Shown here in pieces: positions 1,733 through 45,220 of a stretch of 64,000 nucleotides of DNA; position 1 is the stretch's first letter; each line of letters begins with the position of its first letter. The position numbers were made by a program, and so were the translations under genes. The notes beneath the pieces are model-generated. The model was not told the origin of the DNA. It was given only the letters and a program-made list of their open reading frames with translations, and made no database searches. Source of the DNA: Octopus vulgaris (Eukaryota); assembly GCA_951406725.2 (NCBI GenBank), contig OX597815.1, positions 7,688,001 to 7,752,000 of the forward strand, in the 5' to 3' direction.

Positions 1733-2050
1733 AGCATTTAAATTCTATAGACTTTTCTTACATACATACATACATACAAATACATATATATATATGTGTG
1801 GCTATATTTATATCGAAGTGATTTTACTAATACTATTAATTTTCTTTTTACTATAATCATTTCTTAAATATAGCCACGAAACACGTGTCGTTATTCTACC
1901 AAATATATACGTTTTTATTATTATTTTGCAATTTACTTATTCATCGGTATATAATTTGTAATTATATTTTTAATATTTCTAATATATATAATTTTCTAGA
2001 TGGTGTAATTTAATTGTTTATTTTGAATTGATAAAAGGTAGTTTTCTTCA

Positions 2051-2085
<35 letters not shown>

Positions 2086-2117
2086 TATAGATAGATAGAT
2101 AGATAGATAGATATTGT

Positions 2118-2451
2118 GAAGTACATTTGCCACTTAAATGTGGTTAATCCCTAAGGGTGGATGCTACTGTAGCTTGTAGCCCCAGGAGGACACCTCCTCC
2201 AGCTGGCTATTGACATACTTTCTATGCCCTCAACCGGTGATTGTCACACGCTGATAACGGGTCAATACCCAGAAACTCGAGTCCGTATGTATCATAGGTT
2301 GAAGACGGGAAAGATGGCTTTCCTTTGCAAACACTGATAGGAGACAGATTGTGTGTCAATAGCCAGCTGGAGGAGATGTCCTCCCGGAGCCATAAGCTAC
2401 AGTAGCATCCACCCTAAGAGGTTAGCCACATTTAAGTGGCAAATGTACTTC
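2118..2451. mobile_element. Fold-back element (~100 bp inverted arms), probably a Penelope-like inverted pLTR remnant
   Basis: gaagtacatttgccacttaaatgtgg...ccagctggctattgaca (2118-2215) is the reverse complement of tgtcaatagccagctgg...ccacatttaagtggcaaatgtacttc (2354-2451). A hammerhead motif lies in the spacer. Confidence 0.75.
2245..2289 (+). ncRNA. Type I minimal hammerhead ribozyme motif (G8->A core mutation)
   Basis: cacacg-CTGATAA-c-GGGT caat ACCC-a-GAAA-CTCGAG-TC-cgtatg: stems I and II, palindromic stem III, GUC triplet. Confidence 0.65.
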
Positions 2452-2512
2452 GCGATGTGTTGCAGCTACTGTTTATACCTCGCCCAGAGATTTATTATAT
2501 ATAAATATATAA

Positions 2513-2543
<31 letters not shown>

Positions 2544-3113
2544 ATTAATCAAAAAGTGGAGAAGAAAAGACAAGAAAACAACAACATGAGGGCATGGTAC
2601 ATGTGAAGTATTAATAAGACGCTGAGGGAAGGAAAGAAAGGGTGTTTTACGTTTCGAGCATACATGCATACATGGACATACAATGCATTCGAGAAAAATA
2701 ACAACCGAGAAGTAAAGTAGGAAATTAAATTGAATGAAAGAAGGAAAGTGTTAACCTAGAGTTCTTTGGAGGCAGAAAAAATTGCTGGTAAGGTATCTAT
2801 ACAGTATTCTGTGTTAGTCTGAGTTTCATATGGCTGCCTCTAGTTTTGTAGAGGTAGTGGAAGTGGCAATGGTGTTCTCCAGTATGCTAGTAAGTGCTTG
2901 TCGATGTATTTATATTTCCTGAAGGTTTCAGATCTCGTGATTAAGAGAAAAGCTTGTATTACGTGTTAGAAGAACATGTAGTTCCTGTAAACAGTAGCTA
3001 TCATAAGATGTGTAACAGAAATAGCGATAAAGTGAGTTATGATTGCATTAGAATCTCCATTGCTTCTCTAATCAGTATAACGAAATTTCCACTACCAACG
3101 CGCAATACTTCAC

Positions 3114-9524: not shown

Positions 9525-10486
9525 TATTTCTTTACTACCCACATGGGGCTAAAAACAGAGAGGACAAACAAAGACAGACAAACGGATTAAGTCGATTACA
9601 TCGACCCCAGTGCGTAACTGGTACTTAATTTATCGACACCGAAAGGATGAAAGGCAAAGTCGACCTCGGCGGAATTTGAACTCAGAACGTAGCGGCAGAC
9701 GAAATACCTATTTCTTTATTACCCACAAGGGGCTAAACACAGAGAGGACAAACAAGGAGAGACAAACGGATTAAGTCGATTAGATCGACCCCAGTGCGTA
9801 ACTGGTGCTTAATTTATCGACCCCGAAAGGATGAAAGGCAAAGTCGACCTCGGCGGAATTTGAACTCAGAACGTAGCGGCAGACGAAATACCTATTTCTT
9901 TATTACCCACAAGGGGCTAAACACAGAGAGGACAAACAAGGAGAGACAAACGGATTAAGTCGATTAGATCGACCCCAGTGCGTAACTGGTACTTAATTTA
10001 TCGACCCCGAAAGGATGAAAGGCAAAGTCGACCTCGGCGGAATTTGAACTCAGAACGTAGCGGCAGACGAAATACCTATTTCTTTATTACCCACAAGGGG
10101 CTAAACACAGAGAGGACAAACAAGGACAGACAAACGGATTAAGTCGATTAGATCGACCCCAGTGCGTAACTGGTACTTAATTTATCGACCCCGAAAGGAT
10201 GAAAGGCAAAGTCGACCTCGGCGGAATTTGAACTCAGAACGTAACGGCAGACGAAATACCTATTTCTTTATTACCCACAAGGGGCTAAACACAGAGGGGA
10301 CAAACAAGGACAGACAAACGGATTAAGTCGATTACATCGACCCCAGTGCGTAACTGGTACTTAATTTATCGACTCCGAAAGGATGAAAGGCAAAGTCGAC
10401 CTCGGCGGAATTTGAACTCAGAACGTAAAAGCGGACGAAATGCCGCTAAGCATTTCGCCCGGCCTGCTAACGTTTCTGCCAGCTCG
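9525..10486 (-). mobile_element. SINE family B tandem array, 5 x 184 bp
   Basis: Unit starts at 9525, 9709, 9893, 10077 and 10261. Reverse complement has B box GAGTTCAAATTC and a MetaSINE-like core gcctttcatcctttcggggtcgataaattaagtacc. Only the 5'-most unit keeps the head. Confidence 0.92.
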
Positions 10487-31224: not shown

Positions 31225-31801
31225 GGAGGGGTGCAGTCGATTAGATCGTCCTCAGTATGCAACTGGTACTTAATTTATCGACTCCAAAAGGATGAAAAGC
31301 AAAGTCGACCTCGGCGGAATTTGAACTCAGGACGTAGCGGCAGACGAAATACCGCAAAGCATTTTGCCCGGCGTGCTAGCGTTTCTTATTTCTTTATTGC
31401 CCACAAGAGGTTAAACATAAAGGGGGCAAACAAGGACAGACAAAGGGATTAAGTCGATTACATCGACCCCAGTGCGTAACTGGTACTTATTTAATCGACC
31501 CCGAAAGGATGAAAGGCAAAGTCGACCTCGGCGGAATTTGAACTCAGAACGTAACTGCAAACGAAATGCCTATTTCTTTATTATCCTCAAGGGGCTAAAC
31601 ACAGCGGGGACAAACAAGAACAGACAAACGGATTAAGTCGATTATATCGACCCCAGTGCGTAACTGGTACTTATTTAATCGACCCCGAAAAGATGAAAGG
31701 CAAAGTCGACCTCGGCGGAATTTGAACTCAGAACGTAACGGCAGACTAAATACCGTTAAGCATTTCGGCCGGCGTGTTAACGTTTCTGCCAGCTCGCCGC
31801 C
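31225..31801 (-). mobile_element. SINE family B dimer inserted into or next to an older B-like copy
   Basis: Two ~184 bp units at 31387-31801 and a further partial copy at 31225-31386. Confidence 0.88.
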
Positions 31802-36073: not shown

Positions 36074-37487
<1,414 letters not shown>

Positions 37488-37514
37488 AAAATAAGCAACA
37501 AGAATGGATCCGGT

Positions 37515-37606
37515 AACTTAGTACAATTGTTTCATACTATAACATTTTATTAAAAGCTGTAAATATTACAGCAGATATAATATGTCAAGTAATCTTCAGC
37601 TAATTT
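37515..37606 (-). ncRNA. Hammerhead ribozyme motif with extended stem II
   Basis: Reverse complement: aaattag-CTGAAGA-tTACT...(GCTGTAA tat TTACAGC)...AGTAt-GAAA-CAATTG-TA-ctaagtt. Confidence 0.72.
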
Positions 37607-37703
37607 CATATAGGTTTTCCAATAATATAAAATTCTATATTTTATATATATTATATTATTAAATATAAAATTCTATATTTTATATTATTGGAAAACCTAT
37701 ATG

Positions 37704-37795
37704 AAATTAGCTGAAGATTACTTGACATATTATATCTGCTGTAATATTTACAGCTTTTAATAAAATGTTATAGTATGAAACAATTGTACTTAGTT
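37704..37795 (+). ncRNA. Hammerhead ribozyme motif with extended stem II (mirror copy)
   Basis: aaattag-CTGAAGA-tTACT...AGTAt-GAAA-CAATTG-TA-cttagtt. Confidence 0.7.
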
Positions 37796-37922
37796 ACCGG
37801 ACCCATTTTTGTTGCTTATTTTTGATTATAATCACCCCGCATATTTTTATGGGTAATACCATAAAAAATTCTGGTGCATCTAAATTACGTACCATATTCA
37901 TTTGAATCTAAATTGTTTGCTG

Positions 37923-37995
<73 letters not shown>

Positions 37996-38219: not shown

Positions 38220-38332
38220 ACAGGCTTGTTTCAGTTTCCGTGTACCAAATCCACTCACAAGGCTTGGTCGGCCTGAGGTTATAACACACACACGCTCCCC
38301 CCCCCACACACACATAAGGACACAAATGAAGT

Positions 38333-38426
38333 TTCAAATTTGCTACATCTGTTTCGGCAACGTTTTATTCATGCGTTCATAAATTACATCATGGCATAAT
38401 TCCACCGTCCTCAGGTAAAATTTGAA
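38333..38426 (-). ncRNA. Hammerhead ribozyme motif with long stem II insert
   Basis: Reverse complement: TTCAAATTTtac-CTGAGGA-cGG...CC-GAAA-CAGATG-TA-gcAAATTTGAA. Confidence 0.55.
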
Positions 38427-38649: not shown

Positions 38650-38685
<36 letters not shown>

Positions 38686-38765
38686 AATTGCAGCGTGGAA
38701 TGTGTTTATAAGCCATTTAAGAAACACACAAAAACCGTTCGATTCACTTCAACATTTAAATTTTA

Positions 38766-38816
38766 TTTGTCAAAATATTTTCGTCACTTTGAGACCGCGA
38801 CCTGTTCACTGACAAA
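38766..38816 (-). ncRNA. Variant hammerhead motif (G3:C8 core)
   Basis: Reverse complement: TTTGTCA-GTGAACA-g-GTCGC ggtctcaaa GTGAC-GAAA-ATAT-TT-TGACAAA. Confidence 0.62.
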
Positions 38817-38828
38817 ACTTCGTGCTGT

Positions 38829-38879
38829 TTTGTCAGTGAACAGGTCGCAGTTTCAAAGTAACGAAAATATTTTGACAAA
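38829..38879 (+). ncRNA. Variant hammerhead motif (G3:C8 core), mirror copy
   Basis: TTTGTCA-GTGAACA-g-GTCGC agtttcaaa GTAAC-GAAA-ATAT-TT-TGACAAA (one stem II mismatch). Confidence 0.58.
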
Positions 38880-39016
38880 TTAAATTTAAATGTTGAAGTG
38901 AATCGAACGGCTTTTGTGTGTTTCTTAAATGGCTTATAAACACCTTCCAAGCTGCAATTGTTTTCGTTCTAGCACACGATCTCAGATCAGGTCACTCGCT
39001 ATGCAAGTACATCTCC

Positions 39017-41602: not shown

Positions 41603-42016
41603 TATTTCTTTACTACCCACAAGGGGTTAAACACAGCGGGGACAAACAAGGACAGACAGACGGATTAAATTCGATTATATCGACCCCAGTGCGTAACTGG
41701 TACTTAATTTATCGACCCCGAAAGGATGAAAGGCAAAGTCGACCTCGGCGGAATTTGAACTCAGAACGTAGCGGCAGACGAAATACCTATTTCTTTACTA
41801 CCCACAAGGGGCTAAACAGTGGGGACAAACAAGGACAGACAAACGAATTAAGTCGATTATATCGACCCCAGTGCGTAACTGGTACTTAATTTATCGACCC
41901 CGAAAGGATGAAAGGCAAAGTCGACCTCGGCGGAATTTGAACTCAGAACGTAGCGGCAGACGAAATACGGCTACGCATTTCGCCCGGCGTGCTAACGTTT
42001 CTACCAGCTCGCCGCC
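41603..42016 (-). mobile_element. SINE family B dimer
   Basis: Two units joined by the gaaatac|ctatttc junction. Confidence 0.9.
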
Positions 42017-43267
42017 TATATGTATACATACATATCTCTATATGTATACATGCATACATATATACAAACAAGCAAACAAACACACACATATTAATATAGA
42101 TACAACACATACATATAGGAGCAGACAGAGCTGTTGACAGGCATCCTTACGTAAATACGTACGTTGTTTAGATGCCTCTTATTTATCTGGTTGCTGCTGG
42201 CTGTGTCGCTGCCAATATTCCTACCCCGACTTAAATAAGCAGAGCCGACAGTGCATAAAAGTGTTTTCGTACACACTAATAGGAAAACAGTTTTTAACAA
42301 AATTAGCAAGGACCATGACAATAAATACATGACAAGCGCAAACTTTCGAAAAAAATTGCACTTTATTTATCTAAGTCAGTATTTCCACATGCTCAAGTGA
42401 TTCTAGAATGTTACAGGCAAAGGGTAAAAGCCCCCTCTGAGTTCTAATAAAGGCCTTTACATTCTCTCGAATTCGATTTTTCGTATAGCCATTTGTTTAA
42501 ATAGTGAAATTATGCTCGTTGAATTACTTGGTTTCTGACTTCAGCAGTTTGCGAACAGTTTCAAAGTATGATTGAGAAAGAATTAGTTCTTTGCCGATTC
42601 CCATTTCCATCACCTCCAAAGTACTTTTACAATGATTTGATGCATTTCAGAGCAATTAGGTTCTGTCAATAGACAGTAAAAAAGCAATCTATCGAGTCAC
42701 AAAATCGCACCAATTACAATCATTAACATCCACGAAGACTCCTTTAATTATGTTCCTCTTTTAGACGAGATGCTGAAATAGTTAAATATATACAGTATAT
42801 GTGGAACATAATATTTTCAATAACAATTTCAGTTTCCCCCTAGTAAACATTGTTGCATTCTACAAACAATGGCTGAAGTGGTTTGCAGAAGTAATTTTCC
42901 GATGACCCATTTTCAGTTTCTGATAAAACAATGCTATATTTTCTACTTTACATTTCCATTGTCAACAATATATTTTATCTTCTTTTTTTTTTCCATATAT
43001 GTTTCAGTCATTTGACTGTGGCCATACTGGGGCACCACCTTGAATCTTTTAGTCGAATGAATTGACTCCAGCATTTATTTTTGTTTAAGTTTGGTACTTA
43101 TTCTATCGGTCTCTTTCGCCGAACCGCTAAGTTACGGGGACATAAACACACCAAACCGTTTGTCAAACGGGGGCGACAAACACAGACACTATGACACACA
43201 CACACACATACACATATTATATATATATATATATTCAAAGTAAGCAACAAGAATATCTTCGGTAACT

Positions 43268-43351
43268 TGGTACGATCGTTTCATGCTACATCATTTTATT
43301 AAACATTGTAAGTATTACATCAGTTTTAAAATGTTGAGCAATCTTCAGCCA
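43268..43351 (-). ncRNA. Hammerhead ribozyme motif, extended stem II
   Basis: Reverse complement: tgg-CTGAAGA-tTGCT...AGCAt-GAAA-CGATCG-TA-cca. Confidence 0.72.
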
Positions 43352-43462
43352 TTCATAGAGGTTTTCCATCAATACATATATATAGTTCCATGTTAATTGA
43401 TAACATTATAAAGAGGGTAGACATGAAAATAAGTATATGTATTGATGGAAAACCTCTATGAA

Positions 43463-43546
43463 TGGCTGAAGATTGCTCATCATTTTAAAACTGATGTAAT
43501 ACTTACAATGTTTAATAAAATGATGTCGCATGAAACAATCGTACCA
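43463..43546 (+). ncRNA. Hammerhead ribozyme motif, extended stem II (mirror copy)
   Basis: tgg-CTGAAGA-tTGC...GCAt-GAAA-CAATCG-TA-cca. Confidence 0.68.
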
Positions 43547-43805
43547 AATTACCGAAGATATTCTTGTTGCTTACTTTAATTATAATCATCACCTCATGGA
43601 TTTATATGGATAATACCGTACAAAATTCTTTGTTCAACATGAAGTACAGATTTCCTTATTCTCTTTCCTAACTGCGAAAGCTTTGTTGCAACTAAACAAC
43701 CGAACGATTAGAAAAGGATTTTTGATACTTTTGGAAGACTTTAAGTCCACCGGTTTTTTACAATAACAAACACTCCCGCGCGAACACGCGCATTTGTATT
43801 AACTT

Positions 43806-44398
43806 GGTGCTACTTTGGCGTATGATCTACAACTTAAGGGGCGATTACTTCAGGTTATTTTTTTAGTTAGGGTTATTTTTTAGTTAGCAATTTCTAAAAA
43901 CACTTAACATATTGGCTAAAGAATTTTTTGCAATAGATTCTTTTGTACATATTTAACATTGTAAACGTATTTTTTTCAAAATTCATATTATTTTTAATGA
44001 TAATAAAATTATCTTTCATTTATGTCTAAGTAAGTAATAAGAAGAAACCAACAATAAACAACATAATAACTAAAATAAGCGTGTAGGTCACACAAGTTTG
44101 GCAGCCGCGAGCTTTACAACGTAAAATTGGCAAAATTTCACCGTTTTTTTTTTTTTCCTTTTTCTTGAATCTTCCTTCATTTCTCCACCACAGCGATGAT
44201 AAGACGCAACATTTTCTTCATCAGCAAAAAGGCCATTTCTTCGTAAAAATGCAACTGCCTTCGTCTCGTCGTTCGCTGATCTCATGGTAAAAATCTTTAG
44301 CCAAAATCTTCAGGGATTTTAGAAATTGAAAAGTAAACTAAAAAGTAACCTAAAGTAATTGCCCCCTTAAGGTGTAGATCACACGCCAAAGTAGCACC
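43806..44398 (-). mobile_element. Non-autonomous TIR element, Merlin-like, with 5-bp TSD
   Basis: ~65 bp TIRs GGTGCTACTTTGGCG / CGCCAAAGTAGCACC; AACTT directly on both sides; internal peptide DETKAVAFLRRNGLF...RCGGEM resembles Merlin/IS1595 N-termini. Confidence 0.65.
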
Positions 44399-44470
44399 AA
44401 CTTGTTAACACACACACACACACACACACACGTTCATTATTAGCGGCGACAAAAGCAGTATTAACTCAAA

Positions 44471-44968: not shown

Positions 44969-45010
44969 TATATAAATGCATATATATATATATATGATGA
45001 GTACGGGACA

Positions 45011-45220
45011 CTTTTATCTGCTGCAATATTTGCAACTTTTAATAAAGCCTGTCTTTGTATGAAACAATTGTACTAAAAACTAATCCATCCTTGTTGATTC
45101 TTTTCTCGTTTATAATCACCCCACACTACTGTATTGGTTAACACCATATAGTTTTCTGGTGCATCTAAGTTAAGTACCATATTCAAGTGAATTCATTAGA
45201 ATTGACTTGAATCTTAATTG

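What the first reader, a model, noticed from the sequence alone, without database searches (positions are those of the whole stretch)
43237..43640. Compensatory changes in all three stems between two P1 copies
Seen, comparing with 37484: stem I ag/ct becomes gg/cc, stem II TACT/AGTA becomes TGCT/AGCA, and the stem III palindrome CAATTG becomes CGATCG (left arm). CTGAAGA, GAAA and GTA are unchanged. Inference: selection on RNA structure in the master elements. Keeping the stem III palindrome fits cleavage as a dimer. This is the strongest in-window evidence that these motifs are real ribozymes.
Basis: partly seen in the sequence, partly recalled or inferred. Interest (0 to 1): 0.75.

Follow-up and report, generated by a model that had tools for sequence, protein, structure and literature searches.

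The report
Long-armed hammerhead in Penelope-type retrotransposon
The paired changes are real and hold across about 200 copies: this is a hammerhead-shaped RNA motif, predicted to cut itself and likely only as a pair, at the ends of a known kind of animal jumping gene, unusual only in that one of its arms is more than twice as long as in the relatives listed in print.

Summary
Observation confirmed for the left arm; the right arm has two breaking mutations. 43237-43629 is a dead, 5'-truncated insertion (inverted arm, direct arm, partial tail) of a (TA)n-targeting Hydra-clade Penelope-like element. Relatives carry an RT plus C-terminal GIY-YIG ORF flanked by two direct hammerhead motifs about 4.65 kb apart. 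The two window copies belong to different subfamilies of one ladder-like master lineage. Across 13 subfamily consensuses the 11 core positions never change while N7 changes three times. Fixed stem changes keep pairing 19 times and break it 3 times, against 32:74 for minor alleles (p=1e-6), often via G-U intermediates. The two-copy palindrome change alone equals double CpG decay and proves little; other families with different palindromes support the dimer reading. Cleavage is untested. Hydra-clade hammerheads with the same U-U closure are published (PMC8557442); the difference is a 59-nt domain II against at most about 25 nt. This scan already reported such long-armed hammerheads on other DNA.

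The parts
43217..43236 (.). (TA)n tract at the outer end of the inverted arm (insertion target)
   Evidence: 188 of 203 distinct arms in fetched loci meet (TA)4 within 200 nt of the predicted cut site
43237..43420 (-). Inverted pseudo-LTR arm without tail; 27 nt longer at its inner end than the direct arm
   Evidence: 8 mismatches in 157 nt between the arms
43268..43351 (-). Left-arm type I hammerhead motif, subfamily B1, intact: core 43348-43342, 59-nt domain II, GAAA from 43282, palindrome 43279-43272, predicted cut after 43271
43421..43577 (+). Direct pseudo-LTR arm (3' end of the element)
43463..43546 (+). Right-arm hammerhead motif, damaged at 43527 (stem II) and 43537 (palindrome): core 43466-43472, domain II 43473-43531, GAAA 43532-43535, predicted cut after 43543
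43578..43629 (+). Tail present only on the direct arm; cut short here (relatives run about 50 nt further to a (TA)n tract)
37484..37915 (.). Comparison copy, subfamily A1: inverted arm 37484-37653, direct arm 37657-37826, full tail ending at (TA)n near 37925
44995..45195 (+). Third copy, young subfamily E1, truncated inside the core (lacks C3 and the 5' strand of stem I)

Best explanation
This is the dead 3' end of a Hydra-clade Penelope-like retrotransposon, inserted at a (TA)n tract as an inverted pair, and each arm carries a type I hammerhead motif whose stems were kept paired as the active lineage changed; the motif is predicted to cut after GUA, likely only when two copies pair through their 8-nt palindromes. 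Shown: the anatomy, the link to an RT plus GIY-YIG ORF, two direct motifs 4.6-4.7 kb apart in long copies with the upstream one 210 nt before the ATG, the invariant core, and pair-keeping fixed changes. Inferred: a read-through transcript of a partial tandem folds the two motifs into a double hammerhead, both cut, and a unit-length RNA is released. Also inferred: because insertions end about 40 or 120-165 nt beyond the cut site and often exceed one unit, the template is a re-ligated circle or an uncut RNA. The 59-nt domain II is a conserved rod with an apical hairpin, most likely a docking or tertiary-contact module (inferred, untested). In this copy the motifs lie on opposite strands, so a transcript would fold as a long hairpin rather than a ribozyme dimer.
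For: Element: thousands of first-look candidates per subfamily (3095, 2022, 3007). GIY-YIG upstream of B-type arms (Pfam PF01541 E=2.7e-5), weak RT match (PF00078 E=7e-4, below the curated cut-off), Hydra motifs RWK, DKT, CxCX5C, CxxC, CxH. Direct motif upstream of the ORF in 14 of 25 loci; two direct motifs in 6 of 6 long loci chosen for having the upstream one, 2 of 6 with unbroken 953-957 aa ORFs. Structure: 88.5% of cells paired, 12 of 27 pairs with two-sided changes, slid controls 30-50%. Core 0 changes at 11 positions, N7 3 changes, 1.27 changes per other column. Fixed 19 keep:3 break against 32:74. About ten fixed G-U intermediates against one A x C on the sense strand (hand count). Palindrome: 4 keep:0 break against 7:19 (p=0.012); two other families have ACAGCTGT and ACACGTGT. 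Published Hydra hammerheads share the U.U closure (14 of 26 rows) and often a cut after A.
Against: No cleavage data of any kind. In that tree a copy with a broken palindrome (L135, CAATCG) sits at the node of the CGATCG to CAATTG switch, so the master may have passed through a non-palindromic state. Stem I is only 3 bp in subfamilies B and H. The 10.1-11.1 pair wanders among U.U, G-C, A-U and G.U. RNAalifold predicts only the apical hairpin, not stems I or II. Single-arm folding z-scores are -0.4 to -1.75. No Rfam hammerhead match, even at E up to 10. One apical pair is broken (C x A) in the two youngest subfamilies. Published in vitro activity of metazoan PLE hammerheads is low even as dimers.
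Confidence: 0.82

Rival explanations
1. The palindrome is a by-product. The core fixes C15.2 and G16.2, CpG decay then turns CGATCG into CAATTG by default, and the motif cuts as a monomer with a 2-bp stem III, helped by the long domain II or by protein.
For: CpG transitions are about three times as frequent as others. Both half-way states occur in copies: CAATCG 10 and CGATTG 21 of 198. L135 may mark a CAATCG master.
Against: CAATCG is the consensus of none of 18 clusters, while the wobble-compatible CGATTG is the consensus of three. The youngest subfamily gained a CpG (AATT to GATT). Unrelated loops AGCT and ACGT in two other families are also palindromic. Closing the 2-bp stem III costs about 1 kcal/mol in the model, whereas the duplexes give -5.8 to -10 kcal/mol.
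Confidence: 0.15
2. The fold is selected as a binding or initiation platform for the element's RT-endonuclease protein, and cutting is vestigial or negligible in vivo.
For: Insertions include sequence 3' of the predicted cut site, so the template was uncut or re-joined. Non-core stretches downstream are also invariant. Stem I and the 10.1-11.1 pair are weak. Cervera and De la Pena leave other functions open.
Against: All 11 catalytic positions plus N17 and the 2.1-1.1 pair are invariant while N7, the known free core position (established knowledge), changes three times; a mere binding site would not predict that pattern.
Confidence: 0.1
3. The pattern is chance or a DNA-level effect of a foldback (MITE-like) palindrome.
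For: The locus is a 164-bp, 94% inverted repeat; AT-rich sequence pairs easily.
Against: The covarying pairs lie within one arm, not between arms. Most relatives have no inverted arm. The pattern search gave 311 hits against 1 in the reversed control. Intermediates are G-U on the sense strand, not A x C. The element links to an RT ORF.
Confidence: 0.02

Closest known systems
Hammerheads of Hydra-clade Penelope-like elements (Craig et al. 2021, PMC8557442, section 11 and File S2)
   Same: Type I motif near the element's 3' end; short stem I; U.U closure of stem II in 14 of 26 listed rows; 4-bp proximal stem II; self-complementary stem III; cut often after A; (TA)n targets; RWK, DKT, CxCX5C, CxxC and CxH motifs. 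An octopus member (Hydra-1_Obim) is listed, with a different protein and a short-loop hammerhead.
   Different: Domain II is 57-60 nt with internal loops and an apical hairpin; listed Hydra rows have 3-7 bp stems and 3-10 nt loops. Stem III is an even 8-nt palindrome with only 2 bp in the monomer. The unit is about 4.65 kb (listed: mostly under 3 kb), with two Asn-rich inserts in the ORF and a 3' UTR of 0.55-1.5 kb. The tail is about 100-120 nt against the 30-40 bp given for PLEs.
Minimal and palindromic-helix-III hammerheads of metazoan PLE pseudo-LTRs (Cervera and De la Pena 2014, PMC4209133)
   Same: Located in pseudo-LTRs; palindromic positions 15.2-16.2 and loop 3; consensus families with covariation; also found as pairs on opposite strands 100-700 bp apart; proposed dimer cleavage and circular template.
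   Different: No extra nucleotide between A9 and 10.1; G10.1-C11.1 present in only 2 of 13 subfamilies; helix II far longer than their 6-8 bp.
Natural hammerheads with a U10.1-U11.1 mismatch (Perreault et al. 2011, PMC3088659)
   Same: U.U at the base of stem II is a known natural variant, stated there to be the best-tolerated mispair; palindromic loop III in repeat-type hammerheads.
   Different: The passages read do not describe a lineage that cycles through U.U, G-C, G.U and A-U at this pair.
PLE-X1_sMoe and PLE-X1_sTam hammerheads (Craig et al. 2021, File S2)
   Same: Long loop 2 (about 30-35 nt), marked there as deviating from the canonical structure.
   Different: Plant, endonuclease-less, rDNA-targeting elements of another clade.

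Membership tests
Type I hammerhead ribozyme | Core CUGANGA, GAA, A15.1-U16.1, N17 not G | tested here: met
   Invariant in 13 of 13 subfamily consensuses; 53 of 58 copies linked to an endonuclease region have an intact core
Type I hammerhead ribozyme | Three stems around the core, stem I open | tested here: met
   Covariation in stems I and II; stem I only 3 bp in subfamilies B and H; stem III 2 bp as a monomer; RNAalifold does not recover stems I and II
Type I hammerhead ribozyme | G10.1-C11.1 closing pair | tested here: not met
   U.U in both window copies; G-C only in subfamilies G and H. U.U is a published variant, so this does not exclude membership
Type I hammerhead ribozyme | Loop II to stem I tertiary contact | not tested
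   No candidate contact was searched for; loop II lies about 25 nt from the core
Type I hammerhead ribozyme | Match to an Rfam hammerhead model | tested here: not met
   No hit at gathering score or at E up to 10
Type I hammerhead ribozyme | Site-specific self-cleavage | not testable with these tools
   Only assembled contigs were available
Dimer-dependent PLE hammerhead | Palindromic stem/loop III and two direct copies on one transcript | tested here: met
   not met for the window copy itself, whose motifs are on opposite strands
Hydra-clade PLE | Single ORF with RT and C-terminal GIY-YIG | tested here: met
   953-957 aa ORFs in L218 and L221; Pfam matches (RT below the curated cut-off)
Hydra-clade PLE | RWK, DKT, CxCX5C linker, CxxC and CxH motifs | tested here: met
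   All read in P0002 and its alignment against the definition
Hydra-clade PLE | (TA)n insertion, partial tandem and inverted pseudo-LTRs, tail | tested here: met
Hydra-clade PLE | Generally under 3 kb | tested here: not met
   Unit 4.60-4.66 kb; a tendency in the paper, not a strict criterion
Hydra-clade PLE | RT phylogeny places it inside the clade | not tested
   No tree with named Hydra references was built; assignment rests on motifs
Naiad or Neptune PLE | N-terminal endonuclease (Naiad); CX2-5CxxC linker with CCHH (Neptune) | tested here: not met
   Endonuclease is C-terminal and the linker is CxCX5C

The most novel reading that the evidence does not exclude
The 50-nt extension of stem II is a distinct functional module grafted onto a dimer-cleaving hammerhead: a conserved rod with an apical hairpin that docks the element's RT-endonuclease or serves cap-independent translation 210 nt upstream of the ATG in a circular RNA. 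At least three repeat families in this genome carry such arms, which Rfam models and short-loop descriptors miss, and this lineage supplies a natural ordered series of compensatory and wobble mutants of one ribozyme.
Probability: 0.35. Interest if true: 0.55.

Novelty: new variant of a known kind. Interest (0 to 1): 0.3.

Why it matters
Hammerheads in Penelope-like elements are known, but their role in vivo is open. This family gives unusually direct evolutionary evidence that fold and core are under selection: a ladder of 13 subfamilies with wobble intermediates, and dead copies as a built-in neutral control. Young subfamilies offer ready substrates for monomer-versus-dimer assays. The long domain II shows that current descriptors miss a class that is abundant in this genome. 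None of this changes the known model unless the extension proves to have its own function.

Tried and rejected
Rfam: no hammerhead match; the low-score miRNA hits are (TA)n and hairpin artefacts. Whole-protein Pfam and PDB searches with P0002 found nothing; domains matched only when cut out. My first guesses, Naiad and then Neptune, were rejected on domain order and linker motif. The pattern used a gap that misses subfamilies A, B and E, so its 311 hits are no copy number and it biases subfamily C towards an intact core. The first clustering split on tail presence and was redone. The first endonuclease tree held 8 truncated, spurious or duplicate rows, dropped. The 8.5-kb tandem on contig C2 is not a tandem of this element's ORF. 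Sequencing runs: no RNA holder listed and contigs only, so say nothing on expression or cutting. Linking the two other long-armed families to an ORF failed: tblastn hit only 2 of 30 loci, in no consistent position. Lunse et al. 2017 could not be read; I know it only by its title and a review passage.

Full report
1. Observation. The window holds two inverted-arm elements, 37484-37826 and 43230-43584, each 94% complementary between arms, 75% alike to each other, plus a truncated third copy at 44995. Each arm, read towards its outer end, has CTGAAGA, 59 nt, GAAAC, four bases, GTAC. The stated changes are present in the left arm: one pair per stem goes from A-U to G-C. The right arm breaks stem II at 43527 and the palindrome at 43537, and the fourth stem I pair is lost in the 43237 type.

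2. What the element is. The genome is 2.8 Gb; a 68% identical protein fragment labelled Octopus sinensis makes an octopus likely (inference). Each window copy has 2000-3100 first-look candidates, of which 40 were scored. Copies end at (TA)n: of 203 distinct arms, 65 at 30-49 nt and 116 at 120-169 nt after the predicted cut site, 7 elsewhere, 15 with no (TA)4 within 200 nt. Long B- and A-type copies lead upstream into a GIY-YIG domain. A related young subfamily has a 947-aa open frame with RT motifs and 35-39% identity to six aligned homologues. It shows RWK, DKT, CxCX5C, CxxC and CxH, the features that define the Hydra clade (PMC8557442 section 11; alignment rows). Of 25 loci covering the ORF start, 14 have a direct motif upstream (L202 and L203 are one head-to-head locus). 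Six such loci were fetched in full; all six have two direct motifs 4599-4664 nt apart and two have unbroken 953-957 aa ORFs, the ATG 210 nt after the upstream cut site. The window copy is thus a 5'-truncated 3' end with an inverted pseudo-LTR, an arrangement described for PLEs.

3. Covariation. A profile search of the loci then held gave 241 hits; 200 remained after dropping partial and duplicate rows and 198 after two more duplicates. They form 18 clusters; 13 were ordered as a ladder, leaving out five of 1-3 rows. An endonuclease-DNA tree, independent of the motif, gives the same ladder from J to E2; C and K are placed by motif similarity only. Direction (C oldest, E2 youngest) is inferred from divergence, 4.8% down to 0.8% (biased by best-hit sampling), intact ORFs in E2, and rooting on the most distant copies. 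Along the ladder the 11 core positions change 0 times, N7 three times, and 97 other columns 123 times, 41% of them never (empirical chance of 11 invariant columns about 6e-5, treating columns as independent). Fixed changes at 12 pairs: 19 keep, 3 break, 5 restore; minor alleles in clusters of five or more: 32 keep, 74 break (p=1.3e-6; stem I 0.001, stem II 0.023, loop III 0.012). Without C and K, 16:3, p=1e-5. A singleton-only count gave 24:45 for the control. Parsimony on the 58-tip tree is less clear: internal branches 18 keep, 5 break; tips 26, 23 (p=0.068). Tips on a ladder also carry master changes, which dilutes the contrast. Several two-sided changes pass through a fixed wobble: stem II pair 3 goes G-C (B), G.U (H), A-U (G onwards); stem I pair 2 goes A-U, G.U, G-C; an apical pair goes U-A, U.G, C-G. 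On 25 hand-picked copies, 88.5% of cells pair, 12 of 27 pairs have two-sided changes, 0 of 500 shuffles reach the covariation score, and slid controls give 30-50% (shuffles ignore relatedness and the structure was drawn from these sequences). Against: RNAalifold finds only the apical hairpin and single arms do not fold better than shuffles (z -0.4 to -1.75).

4. The palindrome. The two-copy difference is what CpG decay would give, and decay is elevated (5.7% against 2.0%). With C15.2 and G16.2 fixed by the core, losing both CpGs yields CAATTG without selection for symmetry. The wider data favour selection. Consensus loops are GATC, AATT and the wobble-compatible GATT; AATC is never a consensus although 10 of 198 copies carry it. 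E2 gained a CpG. Two other families have AGCT and ACGT loops. One caution: L135, with CAATCG, is basal to the AATT clade.

5. Mechanism. Shown: anatomy, tandem arrangement, conserved core and stems. Inferred from established hammerhead chemistry and PMC4209133: the 2-bp stem III is too weak alone, two motifs pair through the palindrome (duplex -5.8 to -10 kcal/mol), each cuts after GUA, and a unit-length RNA results. Since insertions run past the cut site and often exceed a unit, the template is a re-ligated circle or an uncut RNA. Two discrete ends match the two adjacent initiation sites reported for an anole PLE (PMC11167929), here about 120 nt apart in E2. A role in cap-independent translation is a speculation by analogy to viral type I hammerheads (PMC13725137).

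6. Comparison. File S2 of PMC8557442 lists 26 rows of Hydra-clade hammerheads, 14 with the same U.U closure, all with 3-10 nt loops. U10.1-U11.1 is a known natural variant (PMC3088659). What differs is the 57-60 nt domain II, missed by Rfam. Six full-text searches listed no paper whose title or abstract describes this family or such an arm; subscription papers and repeat databases were not searched. Read: PMC4209133 parts 1-2 of 4; PMC8557442 passages, section 11, supplement part 2 and search rows; PMC11167929 part 1 of 4; bioRxiv 10.64898/2026.07.22.740005 part 1 of 5 (its supplements are closed); passages of PMC3088659, PMC6765202 and PMC13725137. The alignment figures and supplements of PMC4209133 were not seen and may hold longer helix II examples. 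Lunse et al. 2017 was not available.

7. Earlier scan notes, consulted after my reading was formed, report long-armed Hydra-clade hammerheads on other DNA. They are not independent support, but the long arm is not new to this scan.

8. Verdict. Real, selected structure; a long-armed variant of a published hammerhead type in a published PLE clade; catalysis and dimer dependence likely but untested. Interest 0.3.

Noticed in passing
window 38323-38426, minus strand: Degenerate copy of another long-armed hammerhead family (52-nt domain II, extra U then G-C closure, palindrome ACAGCTGT); 172 candidates, copies about 80% alike; no ORF link found.
   Followed up: partly
L073 1500-1600 (G000 C1): Third long-armed family, domain II about 73 nt (hand count), U.U closure, palindrome ACACGTGT, 342 candidates, some with inverted arms.
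   Followed up: partly
L218 ORF; P0002 residues about 470-560 and 640-800: Two Asn-rich inserts of roughly 70 and 160 aa absent from six aligned homologues, yet in frame in young copies.
   Followed up: no
L218 908 and 1029: Two precise 3' ends 121 nt apart in the youngest subfamily, longer than the 30-40 bp tail given for PLEs.
   Followed up: partly
L153 560-855: A contig from a run with a different organism label (X19) matches the youngest subfamily with 3 differences in 296 nt; close relative, mislabel or transfer not resolved.
   Followed up: no
window 38682-38963: 137-nt, 95% inverted repeat starting at a (TA)n tract, not related to this family.
   Followed up: no
window about 43800-43880 and 44330-44405: Two stretches that look like reverse complements about 450 nt apart, possibly terminal inverted repeats; seen by eye.
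   Followed up: no
window 9525-10441, 31387-31751, 41603-41968: Tandem arrays of a 182-184 bp unit; recalled, not tested, as an octopus SINE-like repeat.
   Followed up: no
L032 about 640-900: Another inverted-arm element between (TA)n tracts with a shorter hammerhead-like core.
   Followed up: no
L092 1200-3150: Broken RT and endonuclease fragments of a different, Neptune-like PLE next to a B2 copy.
   Followed up: no
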